The notes beneath the pieces are model-generated. The model was given only the letters and a program-made list of their open reading frames with translations, was not told the origin of the DNA and searched no databases. From a virus (lineage: Duplodnaviria > Caudoviricetes), in IMG/VR virus record IMGVR_UViG_3300009161_000021: 64,000 nucleotides of DNA. The stretch is one strand, 5' to 3'. The position numbers and the translations under genes were made by a program. Of this stretch, positions 3,438 through 64,000 are shown in pieces (within the stretch, counting starts at the first letter, position 1; each line of letters opens with the position of its first letter).

Positions 3438-4028
3438 CTAGATTATCCATCCTGCTAGGATGAGCTTCCCGCCCTCGTCAAGGAAGCGCGGGTAAGAAAG
3501 GCGACCCTCACTGAGCATCTCCCTGACAAGAGACCTGATTCTACGTTCGTTCATCCCAAGCGCCGCGTACATGCGGTCTCCCGTTTCACGGCTTCCGTAC
3601 CTCTCGACAAAGTCTCCGACAGTTGTCCGAGAGATGGGACGACCGGGCTGGAGGACCCGCATCTCCCATTCGGTCGGATCACCACGTCCAGGAACCCAGT
3701 TTGGAATCCCACGTTTCTTGTAGTGTATGAGGGCCCCCGCGGTGAAACCAGCCATCGTCTCGAACTGAGCGTCGCGGTCGATCGATCGACCCCTGTGGTC
3801 GCTTCGCTCCCCGCTCCAGAGCATCTCGAACGGATTGCTGACCTTCACGTAGCCGAGTTGGTTGACAGCAAAATTGGAAGGATAATCCTCATCGAGGGGA
3901 ACACCGGGAAAGTAAGCCGAGAGATCATCATGCATCATCTCGTCCGGAACACCCTCGAATTCTCCCGCGGGCGCTATCCACGCTGCCGACTGAGCGCGAC
4001 GAAATGTTTCGGATGGAATGCTAAGCAT
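3438..4028 (-). CDS. hypothetical protein with C-terminal ERRIRSLVREMLSE motif
   Basis: 196-aa ORF; start uncertain. Confidence 0.6.
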   Translation of the reverse strand: MLSIPSETFRRAQSAAWIAPAGEFEGVPDEMMHDDLSAYFPGVPLDEDYPSNFAVNQLGYVKVSNPFEMLWSGERSDHRGRSIDRDAQFETMAGFTAGALIHYKKRGIPNWVPGRGDPTEWEMRVLQPGRPISRTTVGDFVERYGSRETGDRMYAALGMNERRIRSLVREMLSEGRLSYPRFLDEGGKLILAGWII

Positions 4029-4128
4029 CAGTAATCAGACTCCCTTATTACGTTTCGACCATATCCCCTCGAGGATCCTAAGAATCTCGTATGAGAAGTT
4101 GCCGAACATTACGTCCTAACTATGCTGC

Positions 4129-4338
4129 TCAACGAGCGAGTTCCTGTCGTCGCCACTTTCCGTGACCCTCATCGCAGAGGCAGATATTTTCGAATCCAAC
4201 GACGGGAGTAATGGACCGTGCAGGGGCGCAGGCAGCATCGCAAGCCTGCTGCTGCTTTAGATTTGATCCCAAATTAGCGAAGATGAAGACCGATGCCACG
4301 ATCAGGAGGATCGTCGCGAAAATATCATACCTGTCCAT
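4129..4338 (-). CDS. small membrane-anchored hypothetical protein
   Basis: N-terminal hydrophobic helix, CxxxC and CxC motifs. Confidence 0.6.
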   Translation of the reverse strand: MDRYDIFATILLIVASVFIFANLGSNLKQQQACDAACAPARSITPVVGFENICLCDEGHGKWRRQELAR

Positions 4339-4543
4339 CGATCACCTCAAATTCATTCTCGAACATCAGATGCTTCTCATCACGCCACAGGACCCGCCAA
4401 GAGCCGTGTGCTCCTGGATGCAGGCGTCGAGGGGTGGCCACCCGTTCAACGAGAACGCCGGGCGGGCAGTCGATGGGGCAGGGGTGATGAAGCTTGAGAT
4501 ACTGCTCATTCGGCTTCACCAGGAGTCCGGGTCGAAGAGTCAT
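4325..4543 (-). CDS. MKPGDL-like small SH3/KOW protein
   Basis: LRPGLLVK start; C-terminal FEVIDG encoded by the junction-like GAGGTGATCGATG. Confidence 0.6.
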   Translation of the reverse strand: MTLRPGLLVKPNEQYLKLHHPCPIDCPPGVLVERVATPRRLHPGAHGSWRVLWRDEKHLMFENEFEVIDGQV

Positions 4544-5661
4544 ACGATCACCTCACGAAGTCCGATGGCTGCCGTCAGGTTGTCGATGGGAACATCCGCT
4601 AGCCGGCCCCGGATCGTCCCACCCATCCTCCGGACGCCGAAGATGACACCCGACATCCGGAGGTCCTTCACCTGCAGGGCGAAGTCCTTCTGGTTCTCGA
4701 TCCCACGATTCGCCTCCCAGGCAGCCTCGAGCTCGGAGACGAGCGCCTCGAACTTGCCACGGATCTCGTCGAACTGCGGACCGTACTCCGGGAAGTAGGA
4801 GAGGAACTCGCCCTCCTCGCCGGTCCGGATGAGCTCGAGGAGGCGCTTCTTGGAGTTGCCCTCCTTCAGGTGGTGGATGGCGAGGTAGCCTGGGTGCTTC
4901 ACCTTCGCCCGGATCACCCGACCGTCGGGGAGGAACTGGGCCACCACGTAGCCCTCCATCTCGAGAGCCGGGAGCTCCTTGAAGGTCGATTCGATGTCGT
5001 CGATGTTCCCGAGGTCGTAGGACTTGCAGACCTCCAGCCCATCGTCTTCCCATTCCTCAGGCTCGACCTCCCGCCCATTATCGTTGACACGGGCACCAAG
5101 GAGGACGATTCGTTCTTCGGGCTGGGAACAGACGACCCGGTTGTGAAGGGTGCAGAGCTCGAAGCAGAAGGTGAACTGTTCCTCGGTGACTGGAGGAACG
5201 AAGAGCCCCTTACCGTTCCAGACCCGCCAGAAGAGCTCGGCGAAGGTGAACGGGTTGTCGCCGACCAGACCACCGGCGTCCGGGGATCCCTTGGTGGAGA
5301 CGTGCCACTCGTCGCGGTAGAACCACATGTTGAGGAGGGAACCGTCCTCCTTCTTGAAGACGACCGAGCTCCCGATGTCCGGGACCGGAGCACCCTGCTC
5401 GACGCCCTCGCCCCAGTTGAGGAACCGGTCGAAGGGACGGCAGACGTGGTCCCAGTTGAAGTCCTCGTCGAGGATGTGACCGCGCGCTGAGCGGACGATC
5501 GGGTCGAGCTTCGGTGACTCGATCTGGTCGTAGACGAAGAGGACGAGGTTCGGGAACCGGGGGTGGCGCTTCGACTTGATGCCGAGCCGAGCCTCCAGGT
5601 CCTGAAGGTTCCAGCCCGACCGAAGCGCGGCCTGCAGTGGTGATTCGTTGAGATAGCTCAT
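4540..5661 (-). CDS. RNA ligase, T4 Rnl1-like
   Basis: Motif I KEDGSL, TFCFEL, EGYVV, RAKVK; GGAGGAG RBS before ATG 5661. Confidence 0.85.
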   Translation of the reverse strand: MSYLNESPLQAALRSGWNLQDLEARLGIKSKRHPRFPNLVLFVYDQIESPKLDPIVRSARGHILDEDFNWDHVCRPFDRFLNWGEGVEQGAPVPDIGSSVVFKKEDGSLLNMWFYRDEWHVSTKGSPDAGGLVGDNPFTFAELFWRVWNGKGLFVPPVTEEQFTFCFELCTLHNRVVCSQPEERIVLLGARVNDNGREVEPEEWEDDGLEVCKSYDLGNIDDIESTFKELPALEMEGYVVAQFLPDGRVIRAKVKHPGYLAIHHLKEGNSKKRLLELIRTGEEGEFLSYFPEYGPQFDEIRGKFEALVSELEAAWEANRGIENQKDFALQVKDLRMSGVIFGVRRMGGTIRGRLADVPIDNLTAAIGLREVIV

Positions 5662-6788: not shown

Positions 6789-7001
6789 CTACAAACCATA
6801 CAGTCCGCGGTTCTCGTTTACAAACAGGCGATACTTCTCAAGAGTGGGATGCGACCCATCCCTGTCGCTCGGGTGACGTGTCGCATCAATCATCTTAACG
6901 TGCCGTTCGAGTACATTCCAGAGCTCGATGATCGCCTTGTCACGATCCTGGATGTCCTCATCTCGAATGTCAGCCAGGTCGATCTGTCCCCAGTTTCTCA
7001 T
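6789..7001 (-). CDS. hypothetical protein
   Basis: ATGA coupling to upstream gene. Confidence 0.55.
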   Translation of the reverse strand: MRNWGQIDLADIRDEDIQDRDKAIIELWNVLERHVKMIDATRHPSDRDGSHPTLEKYRLFVNENRGLYGL

Positions 7002-7216
7002 GTGTTCTCCTTGTCTCTATCGTAATCATCAGTGGTATCGTTTACAAGGTTGACTTCGCGAGGTTTGAACCATGCGATACCGACCGGTGTCTGGACTCTC
7101 AACGGGTTCGGGTAGGCCCCAACTTCGATGATAAGACCGATCTGTTCCCAGTATTTCTCGGCATAATCCTTGTCGTATTCCGGCGTGCAGATCCTGACGA
7201 GGTCACCGGCTTTCAT
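6998..7216 (-). CDS. MKPGDL-family cassette (array member 7)
   Basis: MKAGDLVRI; 14-nt overlap 7203-7216. Confidence 0.75.
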   Translation of the reverse strand: MKAGDLVRICTPEYDKDYAEKYWEQIGLIIEVGAYPNPLRVQTPVGIAWFKPREVNLVNDTTDDYDRDKENT

Positions 7217-7412
7217 CGATCACCTCCAGATTCTCCTCCGCCCATGGTTGCATCTCACCATCGATCAGGACCCACCAGTCGCACCAACTGTTGATGGGAT
7301 GGCCGTCCTCGAGTGTGACGGGTTCGACGATCACTCCGGTGTGACCGAGGATATCGTCAGGGAGTTTCTCATCGTCTGAGTGGACAATCCTGACCAGATC
7401 ACCGGGCTTCAT
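7203..7412 (-). CDS. MKPGDL-family cassette (array member 6)
   Basis: MKPGDLVRI...LEVIDESR*. Confidence 0.8.
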   Translation of the reverse strand: MKPGDLVRIVHSDDEKLPDDILGHTGVIVEPVTLEDGHPINSWCDWWVLIDGEMQPWAEENLEVIDESR

Positions 7413-7596
7413 TGATGGGTCTCGAGCTATCGTGGAGAATGTTATACGACCAGCTGGCGCTCAGTTTGCCATTCACCAGGATGGACATGTGATGAGGCGA
7501 CCACCAAGGTAGGACGAGAAAGATAAGTCCGTTGAACTCCTTCTCGTTTGCGAAGAAAGCGTCATCGTGGAAGCGACGGAGATCACCGGGCTTCAT
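7399..7596 (-). CDS. MKPGDL-family cassette (array member 5)
   Basis: MKPGDLRRF...PINEAR*. Confidence 0.8.
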   Translation of the reverse strand: MKPGDLRRFHDDAFFANEKEFNGLIFLVLPWWSPHHMSILVNGKLSASWSYNILHDSSRPINEAR

Positions 7597-7789
7597 GGAT
7601 CACCTCGAGGAACCCCTTCCAGATGTTGCTGATTCCTCTATCTCCCTCATTTAGAACGCGCCAGAATTGGTCTTTTGGTTGAAGGTTCCTGGCATGCGGA
7701 GGAATCTCGATGAGAAGGCAGATCTTGCCGTGAAGGTGGGCCCAGCTCGCATCTGTGTTGTTGATACGCGCAAGATCACCGGGCTTCAT
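7583..7789 (-). CDS. MKPGDL-family cassette (array member 4)
   Basis: MKPGDLARI...LEVIHEAR*. Confidence 0.8.
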   Translation of the reverse strand: MKPGDLARINNTDASWAHLHGKICLLIEIPPHARNLQPKDQFWRVLNEGDRGISNIWKGFLEVIHEAR

Positions 7790-7994: not shown

Positions 7995-8175
7995 CGATCA
8001 GCTCGAGGTCGCTCTCCAGCATGACCCACCCAGGGTTCCCATTGACCAAGAGTCTGAAGAGCGGCTCATCCATCTGGTGGCCGACCTCTTCGATGATCAC
8101 GCCGACGAGACCCTCATAGCGATCTGGTTCATCGTCCAGGGCTGGAATGATGTGGACGAGGTCACCCGGCTTCAT
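7981..8175 (-). CDS. MKPGDL-family cassette (array member 2)
   Basis: MKPGDLVHI...LELIDESR*. Confidence 0.8.
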   Translation of the reverse strand: MKPGDLVHIIPALDDEPDRYEGLVGVIIEEVGHQMDEPLFRLLVNGNPGWVMLESDLELIDESR

Positions 8176-28551: not shown

Positions 28552-28611
28552 TTTTTTCCATGATCTATTAGATTGTAAGAGCTTTAATTCGACTTTTCAT
28601 TGATATTTACG

Positions 28612-29187
28612 ATGAGGCTTATCATGGACGAAAGATCGCAGCAGAAGAACAATCCTGGGTATTACCGCGGGCTCGGTGGTAAGACGCGCTCCGCCCGTGA
28701 GAAGCACTTCAAGAGACAGAGCAAGATGCACTGGGGTGACCCGGACGCTTATGAGCCCGCTCCGGGCGATGAGAAGCCGACGAAGACGTCGAAGTGGACC
28801 AAGATTGCAAACAAGCGTTTTCCCAAGAAGGACGAAGGAGAATCGATGGAACTGGATGAATCTGCTATTCGTGAGATAATCAGGGAAGCCATCGAGCTTC
28901 TTGAGACCGACGAGCTTGAAGAGCTTGAAGAGCTCGATGAGGCAAAGTCGAATGCCAGCCAGGCCCTCAAGAACAAGGCGAAGTCAGCCAATGCTCCTCT
29001 CGGAGCGCTCCGAGCGATCTACAACAAGGGCCTTGCAGCCTGGAGAACCGGACATCGTCCCGGAGCTGGTCAGCACCAGTGGGCGATGGCCCGCGTGAAC
29101 TCGGTCCTCGCCGGTGGCCCAGCGAGGAAGGTCGACGCCGCACAGTGGAAGAGGATTCAGCAGCACAGGAAGAAGAAGCGGGGCTGA
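28612..29187 (+). CDS. conserved phage protein (DUF5824-like C-domain) with internal IREIIRE motif
   Basis: AAWRTGHRPG...QWAMARVNS; ATATTTA immediately upstream; family name recalled, not searched. Confidence 0.6.
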   Translation: MRLIMDERSQQKNNPGYYRGLGGKTRSAREKHFKRQSKMHWGDPDAYEPAPGDEKPTKTSKWTKIANKRFPKKDEGESMELDESAIREIIREAIELLETDELEELEELDEAKSNASQALKNKAKSANAPLGALRAIYNKGLAAWRTGHRPGAGQHQWAMARVNSVLAGGPARKVDAAQWKRIQQHRKKKRG

Positions 29188-30265: not shown

Positions 30266-30640
30266 CTAGCGGTCCTCAGCCATATCACGCTCGTGCTCAC
30301 CGCGGTCCGCCTCATTTTCCATGAGGTATGAACGAAGCCACATGTGCATCGAGTCCTTCAACTCCTCGCAGAGATCATCGATCAGGCCCTCAGCCTCTGA
30401 CATCGAGTCCTCGTGATCGTAGCCACCGACAAAAAGGTCCTCGATGTTCGTCATGTACTTCTCGACGAGTCCCACGGGGTCCATCGTGTTCGAAGAATGG
30501 AAGCTCGAGAACTCGTCCTCCATCTCGGGAGGAGGCTTTCCGTAGACGGCCTCAACCTCCTCAGGAAATGCTCCCTCACGAAGGACCCTCTTTGCTTCTT
30601 CGCTGATGATTCTGCGGATCTTTGACTCAGACAAACTCAT
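30266..30640 (-). CDS. acidic protein with N-terminal SESKIRRIISEE motif
   Basis: Motif family member. Confidence 0.7.
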   Translation of the reverse strand: MSLSESKIRRIISEEAKRVLREGAFPEEVEAVYGKPPPEMEDEFSSFHSSNTMDPVGLVEKYMTNIEDLFVGGYDHEDSMSEAEGLIDDLCEELKDSMHMWLRSYLMENEADRGEHERDMAEDR

Positions 30641-31662: not shown

Positions 31663-33012
31663 CTACCACCAGCCGGGAACGTTCCTTCCGAAAAGTTTCG
31701 TCGCTCGACACGCCCAGTAGCCAGCTTTCGTCTTGTCCTTCTTGTCGGAGCAGCCGTGACGCTCGCCGAAGCTCTTTCGACGAGCCTTCGCCTTCGGCCC
31801 GGATCCCATCGCATCGGGCATGCTCGATCCGAACGACACCTTCCTGATGTTTCCGGACTTCGGGTCACGAACGAACACGTGAGCACGGCCGCCTGACTTC
31901 GAGGCACCAGCCTTTCCAAGCTTCACCGTCCGTCCCTTGTACTTTGCCTCATTCATGCCGCCGACGTTGGGAAGACCAACCATTATTTTTACGTGATCTT
32001 CCCCACCGATGTTCCTTCTGTACCACCCGTAGGTTCCCGGGAACTTGCCGTCAGGATGCTCACCGAACCACTCTATTTCCTTTCCGTCCAGCACTTGTCT
32101 GACGACCTTCTCGTCAGAGACGGTCTTCGCTCCACGGCCCAGGGCAACTTTTGCCATCGCGTCACTCACCTCGGCGTAGTATCCTGGAGTGGTGAGCTCT
32201 TCACCAACCCGAGCTTTCAATGCTGACTTAGCGAGCCCGGTGCCATCCGTCGCGGATGCGACATTCTTCAGACCGAAATTGGTCCTCTTTCTCATGCTGG
32301 CAGCGTCGACCTCGCGGTCATCATCAAGATCGATAAGAGCGAAAATCGATGTGTCTGATGCTTTCACGGCTGCGACAGACTTGTAGTTCGCGTGACCGCC
32401 GATGTAAGCGTATGATTGATCGATGATGCTGAAGATCTCGTCGTAAATCTCCGGATTCTCGATGAGATCATCGTGGGAGAGCTCGATCCATCTTCCATGC
32501 TGGTCTCCGTAGTGATCGGCGAACGATTCTCTCAAGCCCTCATCCCACATCGGGAAGTCGAGTGGGACCATCCGACCCTCGTGCATCGCCCACCTTCCCA
32601 GATCGCTCTCGAAAATCTCGTACTCTTCCTCGGTCGCAGCGTACCTTCCCTCTAGCCAGAGATGACGAGCTTCATTGACAAGTCGAAAGAACTCCTTCGT
32701 TCCTGGACGGTAAACGTTCTCGCTAAGCGGAATCCTGTTCTTCAGGTGGTAGTTTAACCCTTCCGAGAGAGTCTTCGCTTTCTTGTAAGCGGGAGTATTA
32801 TTGTAAACGTCACGGGTTCCAAGCTTCTTCGGATTGTTGGGATTGCCCTCAACGTCCAGGTCGAGCGTCGCCCCACCGTAAATCTTGCTTTCCGTGTCAT
32901 GACCGGGTAGGATCTTGTCCGTTACCTGTGGGGGACGAACGGAACCGGGACCCTTCTCGATGAGCCTGCTGATTTCTTCTCTGACAAGTATTTTAAGAGC
33001 TCTTGAGTTCAT
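31663..33012 (-). CDS. multi-module putative head-associated protein
   Basis: Modules separated by LIE/LSE/LRE/MNE; C-terminal RRKSFGERHGC...AGYWAC domain typical of large myovirus proteins. Confidence 0.65.
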   Translation of the reverse strand: MNSRALKILVREEISRLIEKGPGSVRPPQVTDKILPGHDTESKIYGGATLDLDVEGNPNNPKKLGTRDVYNNTPAYKKAKTLSEGLNYHLKNRIPLSENVYRPGTKEFFRLVNEARHLWLEGRYAATEEEYEIFESDLGRWAMHEGRMVPLDFPMWDEGLRESFADHYGDQHGRWIELSHDDLIENPEIYDEIFSIIDQSYAYIGGHANYKSVAAVKASDTSIFALIDLDDDREVDAASMRKRTNFGLKNVASATDGTGLAKSALKARVGEELTTPGYYAEVSDAMAKVALGRGAKTVSDEKVVRQVLDGKEIEWFGEHPDGKFPGTYGWYRRNIGGEDHVKIMVGLPNVGGMNEAKYKGRTVKLGKAGASKSGGRAHVFVRDPKSGNIRKVSFGSSMPDAMGSGPKAKARRKSFGERHGCSDKKDKTKAGYWACRATKLFGRNVPGWW

Positions 33013-33013: not shown

Positions 33014-33690
33014 TTACCTGTGCTTCTTGTAAATGTCGAAGTTCTTCAACTTCTTACCTTTCATCGGTCTACCGAGATAATCCTCATCGTTGCTCAAAGA
33101 GACGCCAGTGAAAGATTTTCCCTCGTCCTCCGGATGTCCGAGAAGTGTGTCGCTTTTCGTGTCCTGGGGCGGACGAACAGTTCCAGGACCCTTGGCCTCA
33201 CCTATCTCTTTTTTTTTACGGCGCGTGACTTCTTCTTGGGAATGTCATACCACTCCGACTCGTTGGTCTTCTTCATGTTGCGGCGCTTCTTCATGTACCA
33301 CGGCTTCTTTGCCTCGTTCATGTCACCACGTGCCGTCTCTGCATTGAGGTAATCGTAAATTACGTCTATCATCTCGGAGGCAACAGCGATCTTCTCCTGA
33401 ACCCATTCAGGGAGATCATCGCCGTCCTCAAGGGCGTCGTGAAGCTCTTGAGCCTGCTGAGCCATGTTGTAGAGGTTTCCCTTTATCATCGAGGATTCCT
33501 CATACTCGTCAGAGTCCTCGAAGGTCATGTGACCTTCCTCATCCTCATAGGGAGCTGCGCCGTCCATGTGACCGTATCCGAGAATGTCGAGCATCGGCAT
33601 CGCTGCCGCAAGAGCATTGGGAAGCTGTCCCTCACGAGCCATGCAGCCGCACTCTTGCAGGATCATATTACGAAGTGCTTTCTTGTCCAT
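33014..33690 (-). CDS. hypothetical protein with candidate -1 frameshift extension (short form 33202-33690)
   Basis: A9 run at 33209-33217 (A_AAA_AAG); the -1 frame is open to 33014 and reads EAKGPGTVRPPQ, paralogous to EKGPGSVRPPQ in the next gene. Confidence 0.6.
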
Positions 33691-37697: not shown

Positions 37698-39293
37698 CTA
37701 TTCCGCAGGAGAGTCATCTGTGATCGTGCAACCCACAGAAAGCAACATGCTCGCAGCGGAGTGCGCGTTCTCTAGAGCGGAGCGAACCACCTTCAGAGGA
37801 TCAACGATCCCGGACTCGAGAGTATCAACGTAGCGCTCCGTGGCAGCATCGTATCCCATGTTATCGCGGAGACGTTCAACCTTCGAGAGGACAAGCTCGG
37901 GATTGCGTCCAGCGTTCAAGACAATCTGACGGAGAGGGGCGCAGCATGATTGAAAGATGACCTCAGCGCCCTGTTTGAATGAATCGCTGCGATTCTTCGT
38001 GAGTCGGCGGCGAACCTTGGCTGCGGCACGGACAAGAGCAGTTCCACCGCCCGGGAGAATTCCCTCCTCGACGGCAGCTTTCGTGGCATGTAGAGCGTCA
38101 TCAACACGATCCCTGCGTTCCTTCAGCTCCGGTTCAGTTGCACCGCCGACCCTCAGGACAGCGACACCGCCAGAGAGCCGTGCAAGTCGACGACGTAGGA
38201 CCTCACGCTCCTGCTGATCGAGTGAGTTATCATCGATCTGGGATCTAATCTCCTTCGAGCGATCCTCGATCTCCTCTTTCTTGCCGGCTGCATCGATCAG
38301 GATCGTCCTGTATCGACCGACAATCGCGCGCTTGCAACGGCCCAGATCCTGGATCGTGACCTTGGCTAGCTCTGACTCTCCAACAATGACTCGCGTCCCC
38401 AGCAGCGCCGCGAGATCCTGAAGAGCGTGGAGACGGTTCTCACCGAACTCTGGACCCTTTATGGCACAAACCTGCAGGATACCCTTTGTTCGATTAACGA
38501 CAAGACCCTGCATCGCCTCGCCCTCGATATCATCAGCGACGATTAGGACGGGCTTCTGGGCATTATGAATCTTCTCGAGAAGTGGGAGGATCTCCTTCAG
38601 AGCCGTGATCCTATTGTTAGTTAGGAGCACGTATGGTGACTCAAGTGAGGAGACCATCTTCTCACTGTCTGTCACGAAGTAGGGAGAGAGGTACCCACGA
38701 TCGAGCTCAGCGCCCTCGACAACGTGAAGACTTGTGCTGAAACCCTTTGCCTCCTCAACAGTGATCGTGCCATCGCGACCGACAGCTCTCATCGCTCGCG
38801 AGAGAAGCTCTCCGATCTCACGTTCTCCATTGGCTGAGATCGTTCCAACCTGGATGATCTCCTCATCCGAGGAGACAGGTTTCGACATCGAGCGAAGCTC
38901 ATCGATAACGGAACCAACTGCCCACGACATGCCCGCGCGTACCTCGGGGCTGCTATGATCACCCGAAAGCACCCTAAGCCCACCGTTGAAAATCGCGTGG
39001 GTCAGCACGGTGGCTGTCGTCGTTCCGTCACCAGCAGCATCGCAGGTGCGATTTGCAGCCTCCTTGACGATCTGAGCACCGAGATTCATGTTACGATCCC
39101 GGAAATCGATCGCACGGGCGACGGAGACTCCATCCTTCGTGACGACCGGTGGTGCGCCCGGTATCTCAATTATCACGTTCTGACCTGAGGGTCCCATGGT
39201 GACCCTAACAGCCTGAGCGAGGGAATCGACCCCGCGTCTCAGACCCTCTCGTGCCTCATCATCAAATATGAGTGCCTTGAAACCCTCGGTCAT
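37698..39293 (-). CDS. groEL: group I chaperonin GroEL-like
   Basis: VTKDGVSVA, AGDGTTTAT, GGVAVLRVGG, EGILPGGG; no GGM tail. Confidence 0.95.
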   Translation of the reverse strand: MTEGFKALIFDDEAREGLRRGVDSLAQAVRVTMGPSGQNVIIEIPGAPPVVTKDGVSVARAIDFRDRNMNLGAQIVKEAANRTCDAAGDGTTTATVLTHAIFNGGLRVLSGDHSSPEVRAGMSWAVGSVIDELRSMSKPVSSDEEIIQVGTISANGEREIGELLSRAMRAVGRDGTITVEEAKGFSTSLHVVEGAELDRGYLSPYFVTDSEKMVSSLESPYVLLTNNRITALKEILPLLEKIHNAQKPVLIVADDIEGEAMQGLVVNRTKGILQVCAIKGPEFGENRLHALQDLAALLGTRVIVGESELAKVTIQDLGRCKRAIVGRYRTILIDAAGKKEEIEDRSKEIRSQIDDNSLDQQEREVLRRRLARLSGGVAVLRVGGATEPELKERRDRVDDALHATKAAVEEGILPGGGTALVRAAAKVRRRLTKNRSDSFKQGAEVIFQSCCAPLRQIVLNAGRNPELVLSKVERLRDNMGYDAATERYVDTLESGIVDPLKVVRSALENAHSAASMLLSVGCTITDDSPAE

Positions 39294-39296
39294 CCG

Positions 39297-40828: not shown

Positions 40829-41248
40829 TTAGCGTCGGAATCCGGGGCCGACGCCGCCCATGGTCACGCCACGTGAACGAAGAACAGAGCGGATCTCCTT
40901 GCGGACAGCCTCACGAACAGACTGCTCCTCCTGCTTCTCATCGTCCATAGCCCTCTTCGCCTTGCGGAGCTCGGTGCGGATCATCTCGCGAACAGCACCT
41001 TCCTCATCGTCCTCGCCCTTCTTGCGACGAGCTTCCATGGGCTCCTCTTCCATCTCGTCCATGGCGTCTTCAGGCTCATCGCCCTCGTGAAGATCGTGAT
41101 CGGCAGTGCTGACGTCGCCGTCGAGCCAGGGATCACCCTCTTCCTTGCCACCGCCGAACTGATCAGCCTTCGCGTCCTTGATACCCTTGTGCGAACCCTC
41201 GACCATGAGACCCGAGAGCTTTGCCATTCTGTTCTTATCGAAAATCAT
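40829..41248 (-). CDS. acidic protein with two VREMIR/VREAVRKEIR motifs
   Basis: ATG 41248; ATATTTA at 41267-41273. Confidence 0.65.
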   Translation of the reverse strand: MIFDKNRMAKLSGLMVEGSHKGIKDAKADQFGGGKEEGDPWLDGDVSTADHDLHEGDEPEDAMDEMEEEPMEARRKKGEDDEEGAVREMIRTELRKAKRAMDDEKQEEQSVREAVRKEIRSVLRSRGVTMGGVGPGFRR

Positions 41249-41351
41249 TTTAGTTGCCTCCGCATGTAAATATTCCTGACTCTGCAAATCATCCTGAACA
41301 AAGAGGTTCAAGGACTCACCTGCTACAAACTAACTATTATGCAGGCAACCA

Positions 41352-44287: not shown

Positions 44288-45823
44288 TTACTTCCTCGCA
44301 GCCTTACGAGCCGCCCTATCCGCTGCCTTGATCTGACCGACCATCGGCTCGTCCTTGCCCATGTAATCCGCAACGTGAAGTTCGGGGGGCTTGGAAACAG
44401 ACGCCGCCTTCTTCATCGTTGAGAATGCGGGTGAGGCATAGCTGCCGTACTCTTCCTTATCGGCATCATCTGCGGTCATCGCAGCAGCCGCGGTGAGAAG
44501 GCCTCTGTGACCATTCTCCTCCGAAGTTTCCAGGACATCGTTCACGAAGTCGGCGTATTCACCGCGCTGTGCCATCTGCTCGAGCTGATCCTCTTCGAAA
44601 GATTGCAGCTTCTTATTCTCTTCTCCAAACTCAGTCATGAACGCCTTACCGATCTGTCGACCTGGCTGTCCACGATGCGGCTTGAAGTTGAGCTCAGCGA
44701 TAGAAGCGAGTGCCTCGTAAGTTATGGCTCCAGCGAAATTCTGAAATAGAGCTGAGTGGTTGAGAGCGGCCTGATCCTTCATGATTGCCTTGTACTCATC
44801 GAGACCTTCCTCGTCGAAGAGCGTCTTCAGGAACTCCTGGTTCTCAGGAAGTTCGAAAGCGTCCTCGAAAGCCTCACGGATGGAGTTGTAGACGTAACGC
44901 TGAATCCTTCTAGGAGCGACGAACGCGTTGAGTCCCCGGACGCCGAGCACGTCGCGGATGAACGACTGACGGAGTCCGGATGCGGCTGCATACCCGTAAG
45001 GCTTTGCAGCGGTCTGGTACTCGAACTTGGGCGACGCCTTTTCGGCGGCGGCGGCGGCGTCACGAGTGACCTGGTCCTCGTAATCGTCCTTGAACCTGCT
45101 GATGAATGCGACGAGACCACGATCGTTCGGGTTCCGGAGACGAGCTCCGACCCTGTCAACGATCGCAGGATCATTCTGAAGAGCACCAAGAAGCTCGAAG
45201 AAATCCTCGATGTCGCTCGTCGAAATACGACCATCGCGAGTGGAGCGTATGATGTTGTCGAAGTGTATACGCCCAAGACCATATGCCTGAAGAACGCGCT
45301 CATACTTGAAGTACATCGCGTCGGGACCGGTGGCCTCCTGACGCTCGATCGCAGCAAGCTCAGCCTCTTCCTCGGGGGTGAGCTCTTCGTCATCGTCATC
45401 ATCGATCCCCTCAGATTCGCGAAGGCGTGCCTTCAGGCGGGCGTTCGCTCGACGAAGTGATTCGATCTGCATGTCCTTATTGTCGGACGCTTCGCTCTCT
45501 AGCTTCTCAATGACTCTCTGGAACTCTGAGTAAGCCTGGTCCACTTGATCATCGGGTACCATCTCTGCGAGAGCCTGAAGCGCGAAACCGAGCTCCTTTG
45601 AATTCGCTGGAATGTACTCAGGATCCTCAACGGGCGGACGCTCAACATCGAGCTGAGTCGACATCCTGTCGCTCGGAGAAAGCGGCAGCATTGAGGGTAA
45701 AGATGAGCTTTCGGGTCCAACCGTGAGACGTCTTGAAACGTCGCTATGCTTGCCGCCCGACTCGCTTAATGACTTTTTGATGATGCTCTGAAGCACAGAC
45801 TTTTTGATCTTGACATTTGACAT
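44288..45823 (-). CDS. acidic putative virion protein
   Basis: KSVLQSIIKKSLSE leader; ATATTTA upstream. Confidence 0.65.
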   Translation of the reverse strand: MSNVKIKKSVLQSIIKKSLSESGGKHSDVSRRLTVGPESSSLPSMLPLSPSDRMSTQLDVERPPVEDPEYIPANSKELGFALQALAEMVPDDQVDQAYSEFQRVIEKLESEASDNKDMQIESLRRANARLKARLRESEGIDDDDDEELTPEEEAELAAIERQEATGPDAMYFKYERVLQAYGLGRIHFDNIIRSTRDGRISTSDIEDFFELLGALQNDPAIVDRVGARLRNPNDRGLVAFISRFKDDYEDQVTRDAAAAAEKASPKFEYQTAAKPYGYAAASGLRQSFIRDVLGVRGLNAFVAPRRIQRYVYNSIREAFEDAFELPENQEFLKTLFDEEGLDEYKAIMKDQAALNHSALFQNFAGAITYEALASIAELNFKPHRGQPGRQIGKAFMTEFGEENKKLQSFEEDQLEQMAQRGEYADFVNDVLETSEENGHRGLLTAAAAMTADDADKEEYGSYASPAFSTMKKAASVSKPPELHVADYMGKDEPMVGQIKAADRAARKAARK

Positions 45824-46476: not shown

Positions 46477-46796
46477 GGCTCGCGACCCGTCTGGTTGGCG
46501 ATGAAATCGTAAATGTCATTCGAATCTTTCTCTGTCAGCTTCTTGATCCGATTCTCTTTCTTACGCTTCGCTAAATCGTCCATCTTTTTTTGGATACTCA
46601 TGTCGCCGTCAACTATCAATTGGCAAAATTCTACGAACATCTCTTGCAGAGAGAGTTTTTTTCTCAATCCAAAAACGCGCATCTCAGCGTGGAGCTCGGC
46701 GGGAAGTTTGATATGAACGCACTTCCGCGGATCGATGATAAAATCGATCTGCTTACGCAGCTCCTCCGCCGCCTCCTGCTCCTGCTCCGACTGCAT
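46473..46796 (-). CDS. ribbon-helix-helix-like DNA-binding protein
   Basis: VHIKLPAELHAEMRVFGLRKKLSLQEMFVEFC. Confidence 0.55.
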   Translation of the reverse strand: MQSEQEQEAAEELRKQIDFIIDPRKCVHIKLPAELHAEMRVFGLRKKLSLQEMFVEFCQLIVDGDMSIQKKMDDLAKRKKENRIKKLTEKDSNDIYDFIANQTGREP

Positions 46797-47532
46797 ATGA
46801 ATCCGGTGGTGCCTCTGGACGTTCCAATGATATGTTGTAATCCTTTCGAAGTAAATCCTTCAGCTGCTTCTTGAGACTGTCGGTCTCATTGGGAAAATCG
46901 TTGTCGAGATATTCCTCCGCCTGAGTGATCACATTCTTCTTAACATCGACAAGGGACGTGTAGTTCTTAATCAGCTTCGCAATTTCGCCGGCATACACCT
47001 CCATATCGATCTTGGGCTTCTTGTCTTCCTGCTCGATGAGGAATCGAAGAGACTTCCTACGAAGACTTTCATTCGCGGCAGACTCTGAGTCTTCTTCGGC
47101 GGATGAGGTCGCTTTCATAAGTGCCTTGTTAACCTGCGATTTGACGGGCTCCTTAACGGGATCAGGCGCTTTCGCTTTCTTTTTTGCAGTCGCTCCGGCT
47201 GCAGCGGCTCCCGGAGCGGGTGCTGGGGTCCCTGGAATTGCGGGGGCAGCTCCGGGGGCAGCTGCGGGAGCGGGAGCGGGGACTGCTGGCGTGGCAGGCG
47301 CAGCGGGAGCTGCAGGCACTGCAGGAGCTCCGGGAGCCGCTGCAGCCGGGTCAACTGCGGGGGCAGTGCCTGCAGCAGCCGGATCGGTCGCTGGAGCTGT
47401 GGCAGCTGGATCTGCTGCGGGAGCAGTTGCGGCCGGATCAGCAGGAGGCGCCTGCTCGTAAAGATTTGACAACTTTGTGTTATACATTTCCTGAATAACA
47501 AGTCGTCTTAGCACCGAACGGCTTGTGGTCAT
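46753..47532 (-). CDS. Ala/Pro-rich putative virion protein
   Basis: RSVLRRLVIQEM leader; APAADPAA repeats. Confidence 0.6.
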   Translation of the reverse strand: MTTSRSVLRRLVIQEMYNTKLSNLYEQAPPADPAATAPAADPAATAPATDPAAAGTAPAVDPAAAAPGAPAVPAAPAAPATPAVPAPAPAAAPGAAPAIPGTPAPAPGAAAAGATAKKKAKAPDPVKEPVKSQVNKALMKATSSAEEDSESAANESLRRKSLRFLIEQEDKKPKIDMEVYAGEIAKLIKNYTSLVDVKKNVITQAEEYLDNDFPNETDSLKKQLKDLLRKDYNISLERPEAPPDSYAVGAGAGGGGGAA

Positions 47533-48254
47533 TTTGCAGCCTCCATCATTCTCTCGACCTTCCTGATTCGATCTTCAATGATTGACCACTTGAGCTCTTT
47601 CATCATCGAGAAGATGTACGATTTTCTATCCTTCAGGTAATCTCGATAATAAGAGTGTTCCCAGCAATCGAGAACAATCACTGGGTAGCTCGAAAATGGA
47701 ACTCCCGAGTTATGAAGATCCACCACAACGTTGACGTAGCGCTTGAGGAACATGTTGTACGCCATAACGACCCAACCGTTCCTTGAGCTCATCGCGCAGG
47801 CGATAAAGTCTCTTTGCCACGCGTCGAAGCTGCCCCAGTCACGTTCGATGCGCATGTAGGCGAGCGAGTCCATCGCCAGGGTCGATCTCACATCAGAGAT
47901 GTTCTCAAAGAACATTCCATGGAGAAATGCTGCATTTAGATTGTGTGTCTCGTCCATCTTCATGTTTCTGAAGGTGGAGTTGTTTGGGTTCGCGTTCTCA
48001 CGATCCGCAGAGTCTAGACCCGCAGATATCTCATTGAGGGATTTTATGTACCCGTCCATGAGCTCCTGGTGCGCAGCCTTGTTTTCCTCGCTAAGCTTCT
48101 CAGTCCTCAGGTCGAATTTGGTTGTCGACACGACGTAAGCTTCGTTCAAAGGCTTCGGGCTTTGCTCCTGCTTCTTCGGAAGAGTCAGAGATTCGCGAAT
48201 CACGTCAACGATCTCTTTCTCAGATAGACCTGCGATCTTTAATGGGTCTTTCAT
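47529..48254 (-). CDS. Fe/Mn superoxide dismutase-family protein with N-terminal leader
   Basis: HQELMDGY, LHGMFFEN, WGSFDAW, GWV, DCWEHSYYRDY. Confidence 0.88.
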   Translation of the reverse strand: MKDPLKIAGLSEKEIVDVIRESLTLPKKQEQSPKPLNEAYVVSTTKFDLRTEKLSEENKAAHQELMDGYIKSLNEISAGLDSADRENANPNNSTFRNMKMDETHNLNAAFLHGMFFENISDVRSTLAMDSLAYMRIERDWGSFDAWQRDFIACAMSSRNGWVVMAYNMFLKRYVNVVVDLHNSGVPFSSYPVIVLDCWEHSYYRDYLKDRKSYIFSMMKELKWSIIEDRIRKVERMMEAAK

Positions 48255-48263: not shown

Positions 48264-48593
48264 TTAAACCTTGAATTTCTTTTCGAAATCTTCGATGCTG
48301 TAAGAGTGTGAGTTCTGTCCAGGTGAAACTAATGTTTGAGCGCCATTTGAAGTTATCGGACCAGTGATGTTCTCGGGTGATATCAGATTGACCGTGATAT
48401 CGCTTCCATTCTTCTGCACGCTCTGGACGGTGAATTTTTCGCCTGTCTTAACATCAGTAACCTCAAGACCCGCATCGATCCGGACCTTTCCACCTGACCC
48501 GATGACTTCCATCTCAAGAAGCGTCGTGTAAATGCGTTGCTCGTAGCTCTCTCTCATCAGACGAATGATCTTTTTATCAGAGGACGTTCTCAT
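48264..48593 (-). CDS. hypothetical protein with DKKIIRLMRES leader
   Basis: ATGA coupling. Confidence 0.6.
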   Translation of the reverse strand: MRTSSDKKIIRLMRESYEQRIYTTLLEMEVIGSGGKVRIDAGLEVTDVKTGEKFTVQSVQKNGSDITVNLISPENITGPITSNGAQTLVSPGQNSHSYSIEDFEKKFKV

Positions 48594-60420: not shown

Positions 60421-60705
60421 TCAGCCGCGGCCCGGACGCTTTCCACGATGACGCAGCTTGGAACGAGACATTCTCTCAGCGTCGTCATCGGAGACTCCAG
60501 ACGCTTTCAAACGAGCGAGTCGAATCTTCTGAAAGTCGTCCTCGTTTGTTGCTCCAGGAATGTCACCGAATTCGGTGCTATATCCACCACCGAACTCTTG
60601 CTCCTCAAGCTCGTCTGATTGGACTATGAGCTTCTTCTTGTCATGATCAACGCTCTCGATTTCCTCACGGATGATACGACGGAGCTGTGACTCGGTGATC
60701 TTCAT
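60421..60705 (-). CDS. small protein with MKITESQLRRIIREEIE leader
   Basis: Canonical motif copy; ATACTTA at 60722-60728. Confidence 0.75.
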   Translation of the reverse strand: MKITESQLRRIIREEIESVDHDKKKLIVQSDELEEQEFGGGYSTEFGDIPGATNEDDFQKIRLARLKASGVSDDDAERMSRSKLRHRGKRPGRG

Positions 60706-62051: not shown

Positions 62052-62103
62052 ATGTTCTTACTCCGTTGAGATTATAGTTCAGCGCCTGAGAAGTTTATAG
62101 GAA

Positions 62104-62913
62104 TCAGCTCTGTCGAGCTGGGACCCACCAAGTGGTTCTTCCGTCGAGGGTCTCCTCCTTTATGATCTCCTCTCCGTCTTCGTCAGTCTTTCTTCCGTAG
62201 CAGAGAAGTTCATTTCCGTAACCACCCGACTCATCATCAAACCCCTTATATGATTTGATTGTTGCCCCCTGAGACTCGTATGAGGCTCTGAGCACTCTCT
62301 TAACGCTTTCGTTGAGCGCCTCGAACTCCTCCAGACTCAGTGAGTCGACCTTGCGATGGGGAGAGAGCCGGGCGAGCCAGAGGGAATCAGCCTTCACGTA
62401 GTTACCGACCCCAGCGACCACACCTTGATCCATGAGCGCCTGGGCGAGTGTCCACTTCGGTTTCCTCAGCATCGCAGTCTGGAATCGCTCGTGGCTCACG
62501 TCCTCAGCCAGCATATCAGGTCCGAGAGTCTTCAACTTCGCAGCCAGCGTCCGCCGGCCCTGGGACCACTTCAGAGTCCCGAAGTTCCGGGTGTCATTGT
62601 AGTATACGTCCGTCCCATCATCGAGGCTCAGACGCACTCTGGCGTGGCGCGATGCACTTCTGGACCAGTGACCTGTCATGCCCAGCGTCGACCAGATCGA
62701 TGAGTCACCGCCGTCGAGCAGGATGTAGATGAACTTGCCGTGGCATCCAGCTCCGACGACCCGTTTGGGCAGTTCGGAGACAAGATCGGCATGACCCTCG
62801 AAAGGCTTCCTGGCGTAACGACCCGACAGGATCTGGACACCGGTGATCGTTCGATCGGTGAGAGCTCGAGCGAGCCCTTCGGCAGCTAACTTGCACTCTG
62901 CACCCTCTGGAAT
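62104..62913 (-). CDS. Fpg/Nei DNA glycosylase with ATT start and zincless finger
   Basis: AGGAGG RBS then ATT-CCA-GAG (xPEG); HGKFIY, LGMTG, H2TH GVGNYVKADSLWLARLSP; C-terminus lacks the Cys ligands. Confidence 0.88.
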   Translation of the reverse strand: MPEGAECKLAAEGLARALTDRTITGVQILSGRYARKPFEGHADLVSELPKRVVGAGCHGKFIYILLDGGDSSIWSTLGMTGHWSRSASRHARVRLSLDDGTDVYYNDTRNFGTLKWSQGRRTLAAKLKTLGPDMLAEDVSHERFQTAMLRKPKWTLAQALMDQGVVAGVGNYVKADSLWLARLSPHRKVDSLSLEEFEALNESVKRVLRASYESQGATIKSYKGFDDESGGYGNELLCYGRKTDEDGEEIIKEETLDGRTTWWVPARQS

Positions 62914-62954
62914 TTCGCACCTCCTAATTCATATTGTATAGGAAGTTCCCGATT

Positions 62955-64000
62955 TTACAGCATCTGCCTGATGAGTTGCCGGAGCCTGGATTCACTCATT
63001 GTTTTCTCTCGTTTTTTCAGAGCTTCACCGGCGAGCTGGGTGACACGGAGGTCATCGTCATTCAACATCGAGCGGATAACCTCCGTCGGAGTATTCGAAT
63101 GCTGCACGACCCATCTACGAACCTGATCCTCATCATCTCTTGCGAGCTTAGAGAGGATCTCTGGCGGGGTGTTCAGGTTCCACGCGACGCTTCTGCGCTT
63201 TATAGGGTCGGGATCGCTGGAAAATGACACGAGCATCTCTTGGGGCAGATTTCTGTTTGCGATCGCGCTCATATACACAGCTTCTCTTTTGTCATTTGAC
63301 AGCTTGACCAAGACATCTGGTGGTGTGTGCAGATTTTGTGCGACTCTTTCCCTGACGCCATCCGCGCGATCGCTCGCAAGCTTGGCGAGAACGACATGAT
63401 CTCTTGTCGAGCGCGCTGCTCTCCCGCGATCATCTTTGTTTTTGCTTCGTGATAGGTCCTCAAAGAAAGCGTTGATACTTTCTTTAGGGATCGATGGGTG
63501 CTTAGCGATCATGTACTTGTTGTCATTATCAGGATCGTTCCATAATTTTAGAGCCAGCCAGGCGGGTACGGCTTCTCTTCGTTTTTCAAAGTAATACAAG
63601 ATTGCTCGCCGAACGCTGGCGTCAGGATCGGAAACTACTCTATCGAGCATCTCATCTGAGAGCGTTAGATTCGATCCGCCGACAACCTGAGCTCGAACGC
63701 CTACGTTTCCTCTATCGAGCATCAACTTGAGAACGCCATCATCAACTCCTGGCTCTCTCAGAATGAGATGCATGAGGTCGCTCGCCTCGTCCTTTGAGAT
63801 CCCCTTCGTCACGTGATTAAAATCTTCAACGCTTCTCGCAGCGAGTTGAACTTTCAAACTAGCAGGATGCCTTCCACCCAAGCTTCGATTCTTTTCCTTG
63901 AATATCACCATGATCTCATCGTGATAAGGACCGAGAATATCTCGCAACCTTGTTTGAGTGAGACCTTTATTGGCTCTATCGACCGACAGCCCACCATCTT
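62955..64000 (-). CDS. HEAT/LRV-repeat protein, partial (start beyond right edge)
   Basis: Repeats L..L..D....VR..VA.N..TP; frame open to 64000; C-terminal SESRLRQLIRQML. Confidence 0.75.
   Translation of the reverse strand, partial: DGGLSVDRANKGLTQTRLRDILGPYHDEIMVIFKEKNRSLGGRHPASLKVQLAARSVEDFNHVTKGISKDEASDLMHLILREPGVDDGVLKLMLDRGNVGVRAQVVGGSNLTLSDEMLDRVVSDPDASVRRAILYYFEKRREAVPAWLALKLWNDPDNDNKYMIAKHPSIPKESINAFFEDLSRSKNKDDRGRAARSTRDHVVLAKLASDRADGVRERVAQNLHTPPDVLVKLSNDKREAVYMSAIANRNLPQEMLVSFSSDPDPIKRRSVAWNLNTPPEILSKLARDDEDQVRRWVVQHSNTPTEVIRSMLNDDDLRVTQLAGEALKKREKTMSESRLRQLIRQML

What the first reader, a model, noticed from the sequence alone, without database searches (positions are those of the whole stretch)
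3438..63000. Shared amphipathic 'ESxIRRIIREE' tag and LxE sites on about 14 unrelated proteins
Seen: variants at N- or C-termini, e.g. TESQLRRIIREEIE (60705), SESKIRRIISEE (30640), ESAIREIIREAIE (28612 gene), NSRALKILVREEI (33012), RSVLRRLVIQEM (47532), SEKEIVDVIRESL (SOD), SESRLRQLIRQML (62955 end), ERRIRSLVREMLSE (3438 gene), KSVLQSIIKKSLSE (45823). Many are followed by LNE/LSE/LDE. Known: T4 prohead protease gp21 cuts after (I/L)xE, and T4 internal proteins carry a capsid-targeting leader. Inference: a portable head-packaging signal that loads diverse cargo into the capsid for ejection.
Basis: partly seen in the sequence, partly recalled or inferred. Interest (0 to 1): 0.7.

Follow-up and report, generated by a model that had tools for sequence, protein, structure and literature searches.

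The report
Shared leader tag on phage proteins
Many unrelated proteins of this uncultured T4-like jumbo phage and its relatives start with the same 17-residue helix ending in a T4-type protease site, which most likely is an address label that loads them into the capsid, a much expanded version of a trick known from phage T4.

Summary
The motif is real, but it is mainly an N-terminal leader: M-K-[IL]-[TS]-x-x-x-[LI]-[RK]-x-[LI]-[IV]-x-E. A model trained only on distant genomes finds it on 7 of 84 window genes (about 1 expected).

The same leader heads 22-32 unrelated proteins per genome in related uncultured jumbo phages, two proteins of the cultured Flavobacterium phage immuto, and at least 120 stretches in IMG/VR. 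Codons differ between copies, so the peptide is under selection.

The window has no head genes. Its collinear relative, and every complete tag-bearing genome tested, encodes a T4 gp21-type prohead protease and a gp23-type capsid protein. The tag follows the spacing of the T4 capsid-targeting sequences (h-x-x-h-h-x-E), shifted by one helical turn, and 47 of 48 tagged N-termini contain [IL]-x-E. A conserved small gene beside the protease has a tag-like start, and G004 has about ten tagged genes between its capsid and head-completion genes.

Best reading (about 0.55): a CTS-like capsid-loading propeptide removed by the prohead protease. No virion data exist. A phage chaperonin also co-occurs with the tag, and the rival that it reads the tag is weakened but not excluded. 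This is a new variant of a known kind. This scan had not noted the tag before.

The parts
60421..60705 (-). 94-aa ORF with the canonical N-terminal tag MKITESQLRRIIREEIE (tag = nt 60655-60705)
   Evidence: HMM without window rows E=6e-9. Independent PSSM score 29.6, p<0.0001. The G001 orthologue starts MRITESRLRRIIREELA.
30266..30640 (-). 124-aa ORF with N-terminal tag MSLSESKIRRIISEEAK
   Evidence: HMM E=4e-4. PSSM p<0.0001. The G001 orthologue starts MRLTESMMRRIIKEEAK. No Pfam or PHROG family.
46753..47532 (-). 259-aa Pro/Ala-rich ORF with N-terminal tag MTTSRSVLRRLVIQEMY
   Evidence: Independent PSSM score 18.2, p<0.0001. Orthologues start MKVVSKSQIRRLIIQEGY in G001 and MRLDKRALRKSVIKEMY in L054.
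44288..45823 (-). 511-aa ORF (probable start ATG at 45823, not 45859) with tag variant MSNVKIKKSVLQSIIKKSLSE
   Evidence: Independent PSSM score 15.3, p<0.0001. The N-terminus and the L-x-E are kept in G001, L054 and G004 (MKVAVKKSVLFNILKKRLNE).
33202..33690 (-). 162-aa ORF with tag MDKKALRNMILQECG
   Evidence: PSSM p=0.0095. G001 and L001 orthologues are more canonical: MNRNQLRKMIIAECG.
31663..33012 (-). 449-aa ORF with tag MNSRALKILVREEIS; its C-terminal domain matches phrog_7595
   Evidence: PSSM p=0.0095. PHROG match. Most distant homologues share only residues 81-449 or 353-449, so the leader is a separable module.
48264..48593 (-). 109-aa ORF (start ATG at 48593) with weaker tag MRTSSDKKIIRLMRESYE
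   Evidence: PSSM p=0.014. It contains h-x-x-h-h-x-E (IIRLMRE).
47529..48254 (-). SOD-like protein (Sod_Fe_C) with an N-terminal extension ...SEKEIVDVIRESL; doubtful member
   Evidence: Pfam Sod_Fe_C 1.4e-18. Not significant with the independent PSSM. Orthologues keep IIKE[ST]L near the N-terminus: G004 MKDLFSKKAKEIIKETL.
62955..63947 (-). LRV/HEAT-repeat protein ending in ...KTMSESRLRQLIRQML-stop: a tag-like copy at the extreme C-terminus (nt 62958-62996)
   Evidence: HMM E=0.055, borderline. No orthologue in G001. It may be a remnant of a gene start or a C-terminal propeptide.
28600..29187 (+). DUF5824 protein with an internal tag-like helix ESAIREIIREAIE (nt 28858-28896); lookalike, not an N-terminal tag
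   Evidence: Pfam DUF5824 2e-17. The upstream 85 residues are conserved in G001. HMM E=1.6, not significant.
3438..4028 (-). 196-aa ORF with a tag-like helix ERRIRSLVREMLSE 23 residues from its C-terminus; lookalike
   Evidence: HMM E=0.75, not significant.
40829..41311 (-). 160-aa ORF with two tag-like helices near its C-terminus (EEGAVREMIRTELR, EEQSVREAVRKEIR), conserved in G001, L001 and L054; meaning unknown
37698..39293 (-). Phage-encoded GroEL-like chaperonin; context gene that co-occurs with the tag across genomes
   Evidence: The ORF's translation begins like a chaperonin. It is 45-46% identical to annotated GroEL genes of cultured phages. PF00118 is found in all 8 tag-bearing genomes searched and in none of 4 tag-free relatives.

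Best explanation
The motif is a portable N-terminal leader of about 17 residues: M-K-[IL]-[TS], a basic turn, then L-x-x-[IL]-[IV]-x-E. It works like the capsid-targeting sequence (CTS) of phage T4. Inferred steps: the amphipathic, positively charged helix docks the newly made protein onto the acidic scaffolding core of the assembling prohead. The gp21-type prohead protease then cuts after the Glu of the [IL]-x-E and frees the mature protein inside the head. The cargo leaves with the DNA at infection. Shown: the tag exists, is N-terminal, is under selection at the protein level, sits on unrelated proteins, and occurs only in genomes with a T4-type protease and capsid. Inferred: docking, cleavage, packaging and ejection.
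For: (1) The tag is N-terminal and portable. In G004, 32 of 43 PSSM hits are N-terminal, 22 of them exactly 3 codons after the start codon. The M-K-[IL] prefix was not part of the PSSM. Tagged bodies are unrelated: 29 families among 30 proteins in G004 and 22 among 22 in G009. (2) Selection acts on the peptide. The motif is the same in genomes of 35% to 55% GC, with 5-8 codons per conserved column and 39-58% codon identity at identical residues in the larger sets. (3) The clade is T4-like. PF03420 (gp21 protease) and PF07068 (gp23 capsid protein) are found in G001, which is collinear with the window, and in G002, G003 and G004. The G001 protease matches phrog_207 at 1e-50. (4) Independent association. 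Among contigs found only by a back-translated tag pattern (at least 120 stretches), 4 of 4 complete genomes have both genes. Overall 8-9 of 22 do, where about 10 are expected from summed completeness. (5) Same spacing as T4. T4 IPII and IPIII (MKTYQEFIAE), gp24 (MAKINELLRE) and Alt (MELITELFDE) are all h4-x-x-h7-h8-x-E10. PMC9026906 reports residues 4 and 7 as needed for targeting and 8 and 10 for processing. The tag is L8-x-x-I11-I12-x-E14 and also starts MK.T. (6) [IL]-x-E lies in residues 9-24 of 47 of 48 tagged N-termini against 23% of untagged genes, and the next residue is mostly S, A, E or T. In G009 the figure is 21 of 22. (7) Link to the head module. A conserved small ORF beside the protease starts with a tag-like helix in G001, G004, G009, G015 and G017. 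About ten tagged genes lie between the capsid and head-completion genes in G004, and one does in G001. (8) The protease keeps an N-terminal L-x-E like T4 gp21's LIE. The capsid proteins have LLRE|S, VLRE|A or LINE|A before the mature core. (9) The tag carries a net charge of +2 to +4, and the gp22-like scaffolds have pI 4.4-4.6.
Against: There is no virion proteome, N-terminal sequence or expression timing for any tagged protein. The window has no head genes, so the link runs through relatives. Most tagged genes sit in arrays far from the head module, among replication and nucleotide-metabolism genes, and some have sigma-70-like promoters. T4 ip genes are also outside the head module. The clade has no T4-type late promoter, so co-regulation could not be tested. 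The Glu at tag column 11 is present in only 58% of tags; the others have the E one to seven residues later. The large terminase of some relatives, which is not a packaged protein, has a tag-like N-terminus. Tagged bodies are not basic, unlike T4 IPs. The T4 sequences themselves do not score with the tag profile, so the resemblance is in spacing only. Tag, protease and phage GroEL are all traits of one clade, so the co-occurrences are confounded by shared ancestry.
Confidence: 0.55

Rival explanations
1. The leader is a docking tag for some other shared partner that is not the prohead, for example a host target, a membrane, a replication or transcription factory, or a phage-encoded regulator. 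It groups these proteins for a purpose unrelated to packaging.
For: Most tagged genes lie in arrays of small ORFs away from head genes, next to early-type genes, and some have sigma-70-like promoters. All genomes use the same tag with no genome-specific dialect, which fits any conserved reader. Cargo bodies have no recognisable function.
Against: It does not explain the near-universal [IL]-x-E, the match to the T4 CTS spacing, the tag-like start of the protease-adjacent head gene, or the block of tagged genes inside the G004 head operon. No candidate reader was identified.
Confidence: 0.2
2. The basic amphipathic leader is a client signal for the phage-encoded GroEL-like chaperonin (window 37698-39293) and directs a set of phage proteins to it for folding.
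For: Co-occurrence among close relatives is perfect. All 8 tag-bearing genomes searched encode GroEL, and 4 tag-free T4-like relatives (G002, G003, Mel-JY01, XacN1) do not. From my own knowledge, not tested here: GroEL binds basic amphipathic helices.
Against: Nine GroEL-encoding phages of other lineages, four of them not T4-like, have no tag. The tag is never seen outside genomes with a gp21/gp23 head module. A chaperonin signal need not sit exactly 3 residues from the N-terminus or end in [IL]-x-E. In T4-like phages the chaperonin itself serves head assembly by folding the capsid protein (PMC9026906; T4 gene 31 annotation). The link may therefore reflect one clade with one head-assembly system.
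Confidence: 0.1
3. The shared start is not an address at all. It is a gene-start cassette spread by recombination or duplication, or a translation-initiation feature, with no common protein-level function.
For: Tagged genes often lie in tandem arrays (G009 47.6-57.0 kb, G004 24.5-43.8 kb), where illegitimate recombination between gene starts would be easy. MK as the first two residues is common in highly expressed genes (my own knowledge).
Against: Conserved columns use many synonymous codons, and identical residues share a codon only 39-58% of the time in the larger sets. The peptide is conserved between genomes of 35% and 55% GC and between orthologues whose bodies are 45-55% identical. Upstream DNA is not conserved.
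Confidence: 0.07

Closest known systems
Capsid targeting sequences (CTS) of phage T4 internal proteins IPI, IPII, IPIII, and the N-terminal propeptides of Alt and gp24 (Mullaney and Black 1996, as reviewed in PMC9026906, PMC5694885, PMC3012670)
   Same: A short N-terminal leader on otherwise unrelated proteins. It starts MK.T and has the spacing h-x-x-h-h-x-E, ending in the (L/I)-x-E rule of the gp21 protease. The phage has a gp21-type protease, a gp22-like scaffold and a gp23-type capsid. Cargo genes are scattered outside the head module and vary between relatives.
   Different: The tag is 14-17 residues with an extra basic turn, not 10, and T4 sequences do not score with its profile. It marks 7 or more genes in this 64-kb window and 22-32 per genome (6-14% of genes), against a handful in T4. 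Cargo bodies are mostly acidic, not basic. It is found in an aquatic, largely uncultured clade with DnaE-type polymerase and its own GroEL. None of the functional steps has been tested.
N-terminal propeptides of head and ejection proteins in phiKZ-like giant phages (SPN3US, phiKZ, 201phi2-1; PMC5694885, PMC7411985)
   Same: Many internal head proteins of a jumbo phage are made with N-terminal propeptides that a T4-related prohead protease removes after Glu. These propeptides are thought to target the proteins into the prohead.
   Different: Those propeptides are mostly over 100 residues, are not a shared sequence except between two paralogues, and are cut at A/S-x-E. Here one short consensus leader is shared by dozens of unrelated proteins and ends in I/L-x-E.
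Leader peptides of multi-substrate RiPP systems (one maturase, many precursors with a shared leader)
   Same: Arrays of genes share a conserved N-terminal leader and have hypervariable remainders. This implies one reader for many substrates.
   Different: The bodies are 60-800-residue proteins, some of them enzymes (SOD-like, 5'-3' deoxyribonucleotidase), not short cores. I saw no maturase beside the arrays, but I did not annotate their neighbours systematically. The resemblance is only in logic.

Membership tests
T4-type capsid targeting sequence (CTS) / gp21-removed N-terminal propeptide | A short (10-20 residue) leader at the extreme N-terminus of otherwise unrelated proteins | tested here: met
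   The tag starts 1-6 (mostly 3) codons after the start codon. Bodies are unrelated by BLASTP: 29 families of 30 in G004 and 22 of 22 in G009.
T4-type capsid targeting sequence (CTS) / gp21-removed N-terminal propeptide | The leader ends in the gp21 cleavage motif (L/I)-x-E | tested here: met
   [IL]-x-E lies in residues 9-24 of 47 of 48 tagged N-termini against 23% of untagged genes, and of 21 of 22 in G009. Cleavage itself was not tested.
T4-type capsid targeting sequence (CTS) / gp21-removed N-terminal propeptide | The phage encodes a gp21-family prohead protease with a gp22-like scaffold and gp23-like capsid protein | tested here: met
   Not in the window itself. Met in the collinear relative G001 and in G002, G004, G009, G015, G017, G020 and G027. 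Scaffold N-termini resemble T4 gp22.
T4-type capsid targeting sequence (CTS) / gp21-removed N-terminal propeptide | Sequence similarity to the T4 CTS MKTYQEFIAE | tested here: inconclusive
   The spacing h-x-x-h-h-x-E and the MK.T start are shared. The tag profile finds nothing in the T4 genome, and the tag has an extra four residues.
T4-type capsid targeting sequence (CTS) / gp21-removed N-terminal propeptide | Tagged proteins are present in virions in processed form and are ejected with the DNA | not testable with these tools
   No proteome exists for any tag-bearing phage. The cultured carrier is Flavobacterium phage immuto.
T4-type capsid targeting sequence (CTS) / gp21-removed N-terminal propeptide | The leader alone is sufficient to encapsidate a foreign protein | not testable with these tools
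   This needs a fusion experiment.
Sec/Tat signal peptide | An uninterrupted hydrophobic h-region of about 7-15 residues after a basic n-region | tested here: not met
   The logo shows hydrophobic positions alternating with R, K, Q and E (columns 5, 8, 9 and 13 only) and no hydrophobic run.
RiPP leader/core precursor family | Short precursor peptides with an adjacent maturase | tested here: not met
   Tagged proteins are 78-834 residues. The few Pfam and PHROG hits in the tagged set are enzymes and domains of unknown function. Neighbours of the arrays were not systematically annotated.

The most novel reading that the evidence does not exclude
These aquatic T4-like jumbo phages package and inject a large, fast-evolving repertoire of 20-30 or more different proteins per virion, all loaded by one universal 17-residue leader. 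The leader alone would then identify the injected proteome of uncultured phages from sequence, including likely anti-defence and host-takeover factors. It would also be a natural protein-packaging tag for a cultivable marine system (Flavobacterium phage immuto).
Probability: 0.4. Interest if true: 0.75.

Novelty: new variant of a known kind. Interest (0 to 1): 0.6.

Why it matters
Capsid-targeting leaders are established experimentally only in T4 and its close relatives, where they mark a handful of proteins. Here a distinct and longer leader with the same spacing marks 6-14% of the genes of several jumbo phages and occurs at 120 or more sites in IMG/VR. If it is a capsid-loading signal, it gives a sequence-only way to list the proteins that widespread uncultured aquatic phages inject with their DNA. 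Nearly all of these proteins are of unknown function and are candidates for anti-defence or host-takeover roles. It would also show that the T4 strategy of loading diverse proteins through a common leader is old and expandable. One cultured phage (immuto) carries the tag, so the idea can be tested directly.

Tried and rejected
1. T4-type late promoters (TATAAATA) upstream of tagged genes. There are none in the window or G001, and the 4 on the coding strand of G004 are unrelated to tagged genes. Upstream regions are varied, some with sigma-70-like boxes, so expression timing cannot be read from them.
2. Complex prediction of the G001 protease (with alignment) and the first 45 residues of a tagged protein returned no answer (score 0.00). 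This is not evidence either way.
3. Genome-specific tag dialects, as a sign of co-evolution with a reader, were not found: within-genome identity 0.263 against 0.251 between genomes, and 104 of 500 shuffles reach that difference.
4. Homology of the conserved protease-adjacent small protein to T4 gp67 or gp68 by hhalign gave nothing (probability below 1%). PHROGs gave no name for it or for the scaffold-position ORFs.
5. I first suggested that the DUF5824 gene starts at the internal ATG (28846), which would make its motif N-terminal. I rejected this because the upstream 85 residues are conserved in G001 and the G004 homologue is longer still.
6. I considered that the tag at 62955 belongs to the downstream Fpg/Nei gene through a frameshift. 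I rejected this because that gene has its own AGGAGG plus ATT start.
7. A tblastn search with a 24-residue tag against cultured phages gave no match, probably because of the low-complexity filter. The profile search instead found two tags in immuto.
8. Function of the cargo: Pfam and PHROGs on 47 tagged proteins gave almost nothing, and ESM Atlas look-alikes for the 449-aa and 511-aa proteins gave nothing usable.
9. Charge of the cargo: tagged bodies are not basic like T4 IPs (median pI about 5 in the window and G004).

Full report
What the window is. The 64-kb window is phage-like. Nearly all genes are on the minus strand and GC content is 52-59%. It encodes an ATP-dependent DNA ligase, a T4-type RNA ligase, an AAA ATPase and a UvdE endonuclease. 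It also encodes a GroEL-like chaperonin (37698-39293) and a DnaE-type Pol III alpha subunit (55879-59502), plus many ORFs with no known family. It has no near relative among cultured phages, and no whole genome is held for it. It is collinear over about 56 kb with the IMG/VR contig G001 (143 kb, CheckV completeness 43%), so the phage is probably of jumbo size.

Checking the observation. A loose regex gives 12 hits against 0.67 in shuffles, and a seed PSSM mostly recovers its own seeds. Both are circular, so I tested on sequences that did not contribute to the models.
- In 55 related IMG/VR loci, high-scoring matches fall almost only at ORF starts, as MK[IL]T..QL[RK].II[RK]EE on ORFs of very different lengths.
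- In the whole distant genome G004 (237 kb, 35% GC), 32 of 43 hits are N-terminal, and 22 of those lie exactly three codons after the start codon. The reversed-sequence control gives 4 hits. The preceding M-K-[IL] was not part of the PSSM.
- An HMM built without any window sequence finds two clear tags in the window (60705, E=6e-9; 30640, E=4e-4) and one borderline C-terminal copy (62955, E=0.055).
- A PSSM trained only on G004, G015 and G017 and applied to gene N-termini finds seven window genes at p<=0.014 among 84 tested, where about one is expected.

The DUF5824 copy is internal.

Anatomy of the tag. The logo is M-K-[IL]-[TSN]-[RKE]-x-x-[LI]-[RK]-[RKQ]-[LI]-[IV]-x-[E>K,Q]-[ESA]-[ILF], with no conservation beyond about residue 17. 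Conserved columns use 5-8 different codons. Identical residues share a codon only 39-58% of the time in the larger sets. The peptide is the same in genomes of 35% to 55% GC. Selection is therefore on the peptide and not on the RNA.

The proteins behind the tag are unrelated to one another. The 47 tagged proteins from the window, G001 and G004 fall into 41 BLAST families. G004 has 29 families among 30 proteins, and G009 has 22 among 22. Of the 47, 44 have no Pfam family. The exceptions are an SOD-like protein, DUF5824 and a weak DUF2408 hit, and PHROGs adds a 5'-3' deoxyribonucleotidase.

How widespread it is. The profile finds 33 tags in G009 (293 kb, complete), 29 in G027 and 12 in G020. The PSSM finds 10-11 in G015 and 2 in G017. 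The profile finds two in the cultured Flavobacterium phage immuto and none in T4, XacN1, Mel-JY01, G002 or G003. In G009 at least 18 consecutive genes (47.6-57.0 kb) carry the tag.

What kind of phage carries it. The records behind the relatives encode a gp21-family prohead protease (PF03420; phrog_207 at 1e-50) and a gp23-family capsid protein about 4 kb apart. The gene order is TerL, portal, a roughly 280-aa ORF, protease, small ORFs, a gp22-like scaffold, then the capsid protein. The scaffold N-termini (LYDEAISDAK, LFEEAIADAK, and LLKQAIAEAK in immuto) resemble T4 gp22 (MLKEQLIAEAQK).

Contigs found only through the tag give an independent test. All 4 complete ones have both the protease and the capsid gene. 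Overall 8-9 of 22 do, against about 10 expected from their summed completeness.

Why a capsid-targeting propeptide is the best reading.
1. Spacing. The T4 sequences fetched here show that IPII and IPIII (MKTYQEFIAE), gp24 (MAKINELLRE) and Alt (MELITELFDE) all follow h4-x-x-h7-h8-x-E10. PMC9026906 reports that CTS residues 4 and 7 carry targeting and residues 8 and 10 carry processing. The tag follows the same spacing one helical turn later (L8, I11, I12, E14) and also starts MK.T.
2. Cleavage motif. [IL]-x-E, the gp21 rule, lies in residues 9-24 of 47 of 48 tagged N-termini against 23% of untagged genes. The next residue is mostly S, A, E or T.
3. Head-module gene. A conserved small ORF beside the protease starts with a tag-like helix: G001 MALSRSELKDIIKECILEV, G004 MNNKTRKAMKSIVKECLLEI, G015 MKKSELKNIIKECVKEV, G009 KISKSMLKGIVKECLVEI, and weaker in G017 and Mel-JY01. 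It is the only tagged family shared by the distant genomes G001 and G004.
4. Position in the head operon. In G004 about ten tagged genes lie between the capsid gene and the gene that immuto annotates as head completion protein, and one does in G001.
5. Protease and capsid sites. The protease keeps an N-terminal L-x-E (LLTEW, VLREW) like T4 gp21's LLIETW. The capsid proteins carry LLRE|S, VLRE|A or LINE|A before a Gly/Ser linker upstream of the mature core.
6. Charge. The tag is basic (+2 to +4) and the scaffolds are acidic (pI 4.4-4.6).

The reviews also state that T-even internal proteins share only a CTS (PMC3012670). They note that Alt is trimmed at both ends, which leaves room for the C-terminal copies (PMC9026906).

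What speaks against it, and the rivals. Nothing functional has been shown. Most tagged genes lie far from the head module among early-type genes, and some have sigma-70-like promoters, although the T4 ip genes are also scattered. The clade has no TATAAATA late promoters, so co-regulation could not be assessed. Some large terminases have tag-like N-termini. Cargo bodies are not basic.

An unexpected result is that the phage GroEL co-occurs perfectly with the tag among close relatives: 8 of 8 tag-bearing genomes against 0 of 4 tag-free ones. Nine GroEL-encoding phages of other lineages, four of them not T4-like, lack the tag. This weakens a chaperonin-client reading but does not exclude it, because tag, protease and GroEL are all traits of one clade.

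A generic docking tag for an unknown partner remains possible. A non-functional gene-start cassette is unlikely given the codon data. The complex prediction gave no answer.

Comparison with what is known, and novelty. The system works like the T4 CTS and probably descends from the same head-assembly logic. It is a different, longer consensus that T4 sequences do not match. It is used on 6-14% of genes rather than a handful. It occurs in an aquatic, mostly uncultured clade related to the immuto group (10.1101/2024.04.26.591309). I class it as a new variant of a known kind. My confidence in the capsid-loading mechanism is about 0.55, and I score interest at 0.6.

Noticed in passing
window 900-27800, minus strand (e.g. 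7399-7596, 7583-7789, 6998-7216, 12952-13149, 8162-8419, 19189-19623, 27517-27720): A second, unrelated family: 21 small ORFs (about 65-145 aa) start with, or contain close to their start, M-K-P-G-D-L-V-R-I and share a later G..G.I motif. This looks like a large expansion of a small beta-barrel-type paralogue. Its function is unknown.
   Followed up: partly
window 62104-62913, minus strand: The Fpg/Nei-type DNA glycosylase has no ATG, GTG or TTG start. Its catalytic N-terminus (PEGAEC...) follows an ATT codon at 62913-62911, 6 nt after a strong AGGAGG. This suggests an ATT start codon. The longest standard-start ORF (62104-62679) misses the N-terminal domain.
   Followed up: partly
window 37698-39293 and related genomes: A phage-encoded GroEL-like chaperonin is present in all 8 tag-bearing genomes searched and absent from 4 tag-free T4-like relatives (G002, G003, Mel-JY01, XacN1). 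Nine GroEL-encoding phages of other lineages lack the tag.
   Followed up: yes
window 55879-59502: A phage with a T4-type head module (seen in its relatives) replicates with a DnaE-type Pol III alpha instead of a T4 gp43-type polymerase. This fits the reported polymerase swapping in the immuto group (10.1101/2024.04.26.591309).
   Followed up: partly
window 40829-41311, minus strand: A 160-aa protein, conserved in G001, L001 and L054, carries two tag-like helices in tandem near its C-terminus (EEGAVREMIRTELR ... EEQSVREAVRKEIR) and ends in a Gly-rich tail. Whether it relates to the tag system, for example as a partner or mimic, is unknown.
   Followed up: no
G004 38789-39460 (locus L077:18789-19460, minus strand): A 5'-3' deoxyribonucleotidase (HAD-type) carries the tag as a roughly 20-residue extension directly in front of its DMDGV catalytic motif. 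This is a clear case of the leader grafted onto an ordinary enzyme.
   Followed up: partly
L013, L014, L017, L022 and immuto L089:4116-5690: The T4-like large terminase of several relatives starts with a tag-like helix (e.g. MAVQQKKSLKEIIREEYQKC). This is either chance resemblance or a sign that this type of N-terminal helix has uses beyond cargo loading.
   Followed up: no
G009 176509-180120 and G027 139350-142938: Two tandem copies of the gp23-type major capsid gene (about 631-643 aa each) lie side by side in these jumbo genomes. They may be the capsid and vertex (gp24-like) paralogues.
   Followed up: no
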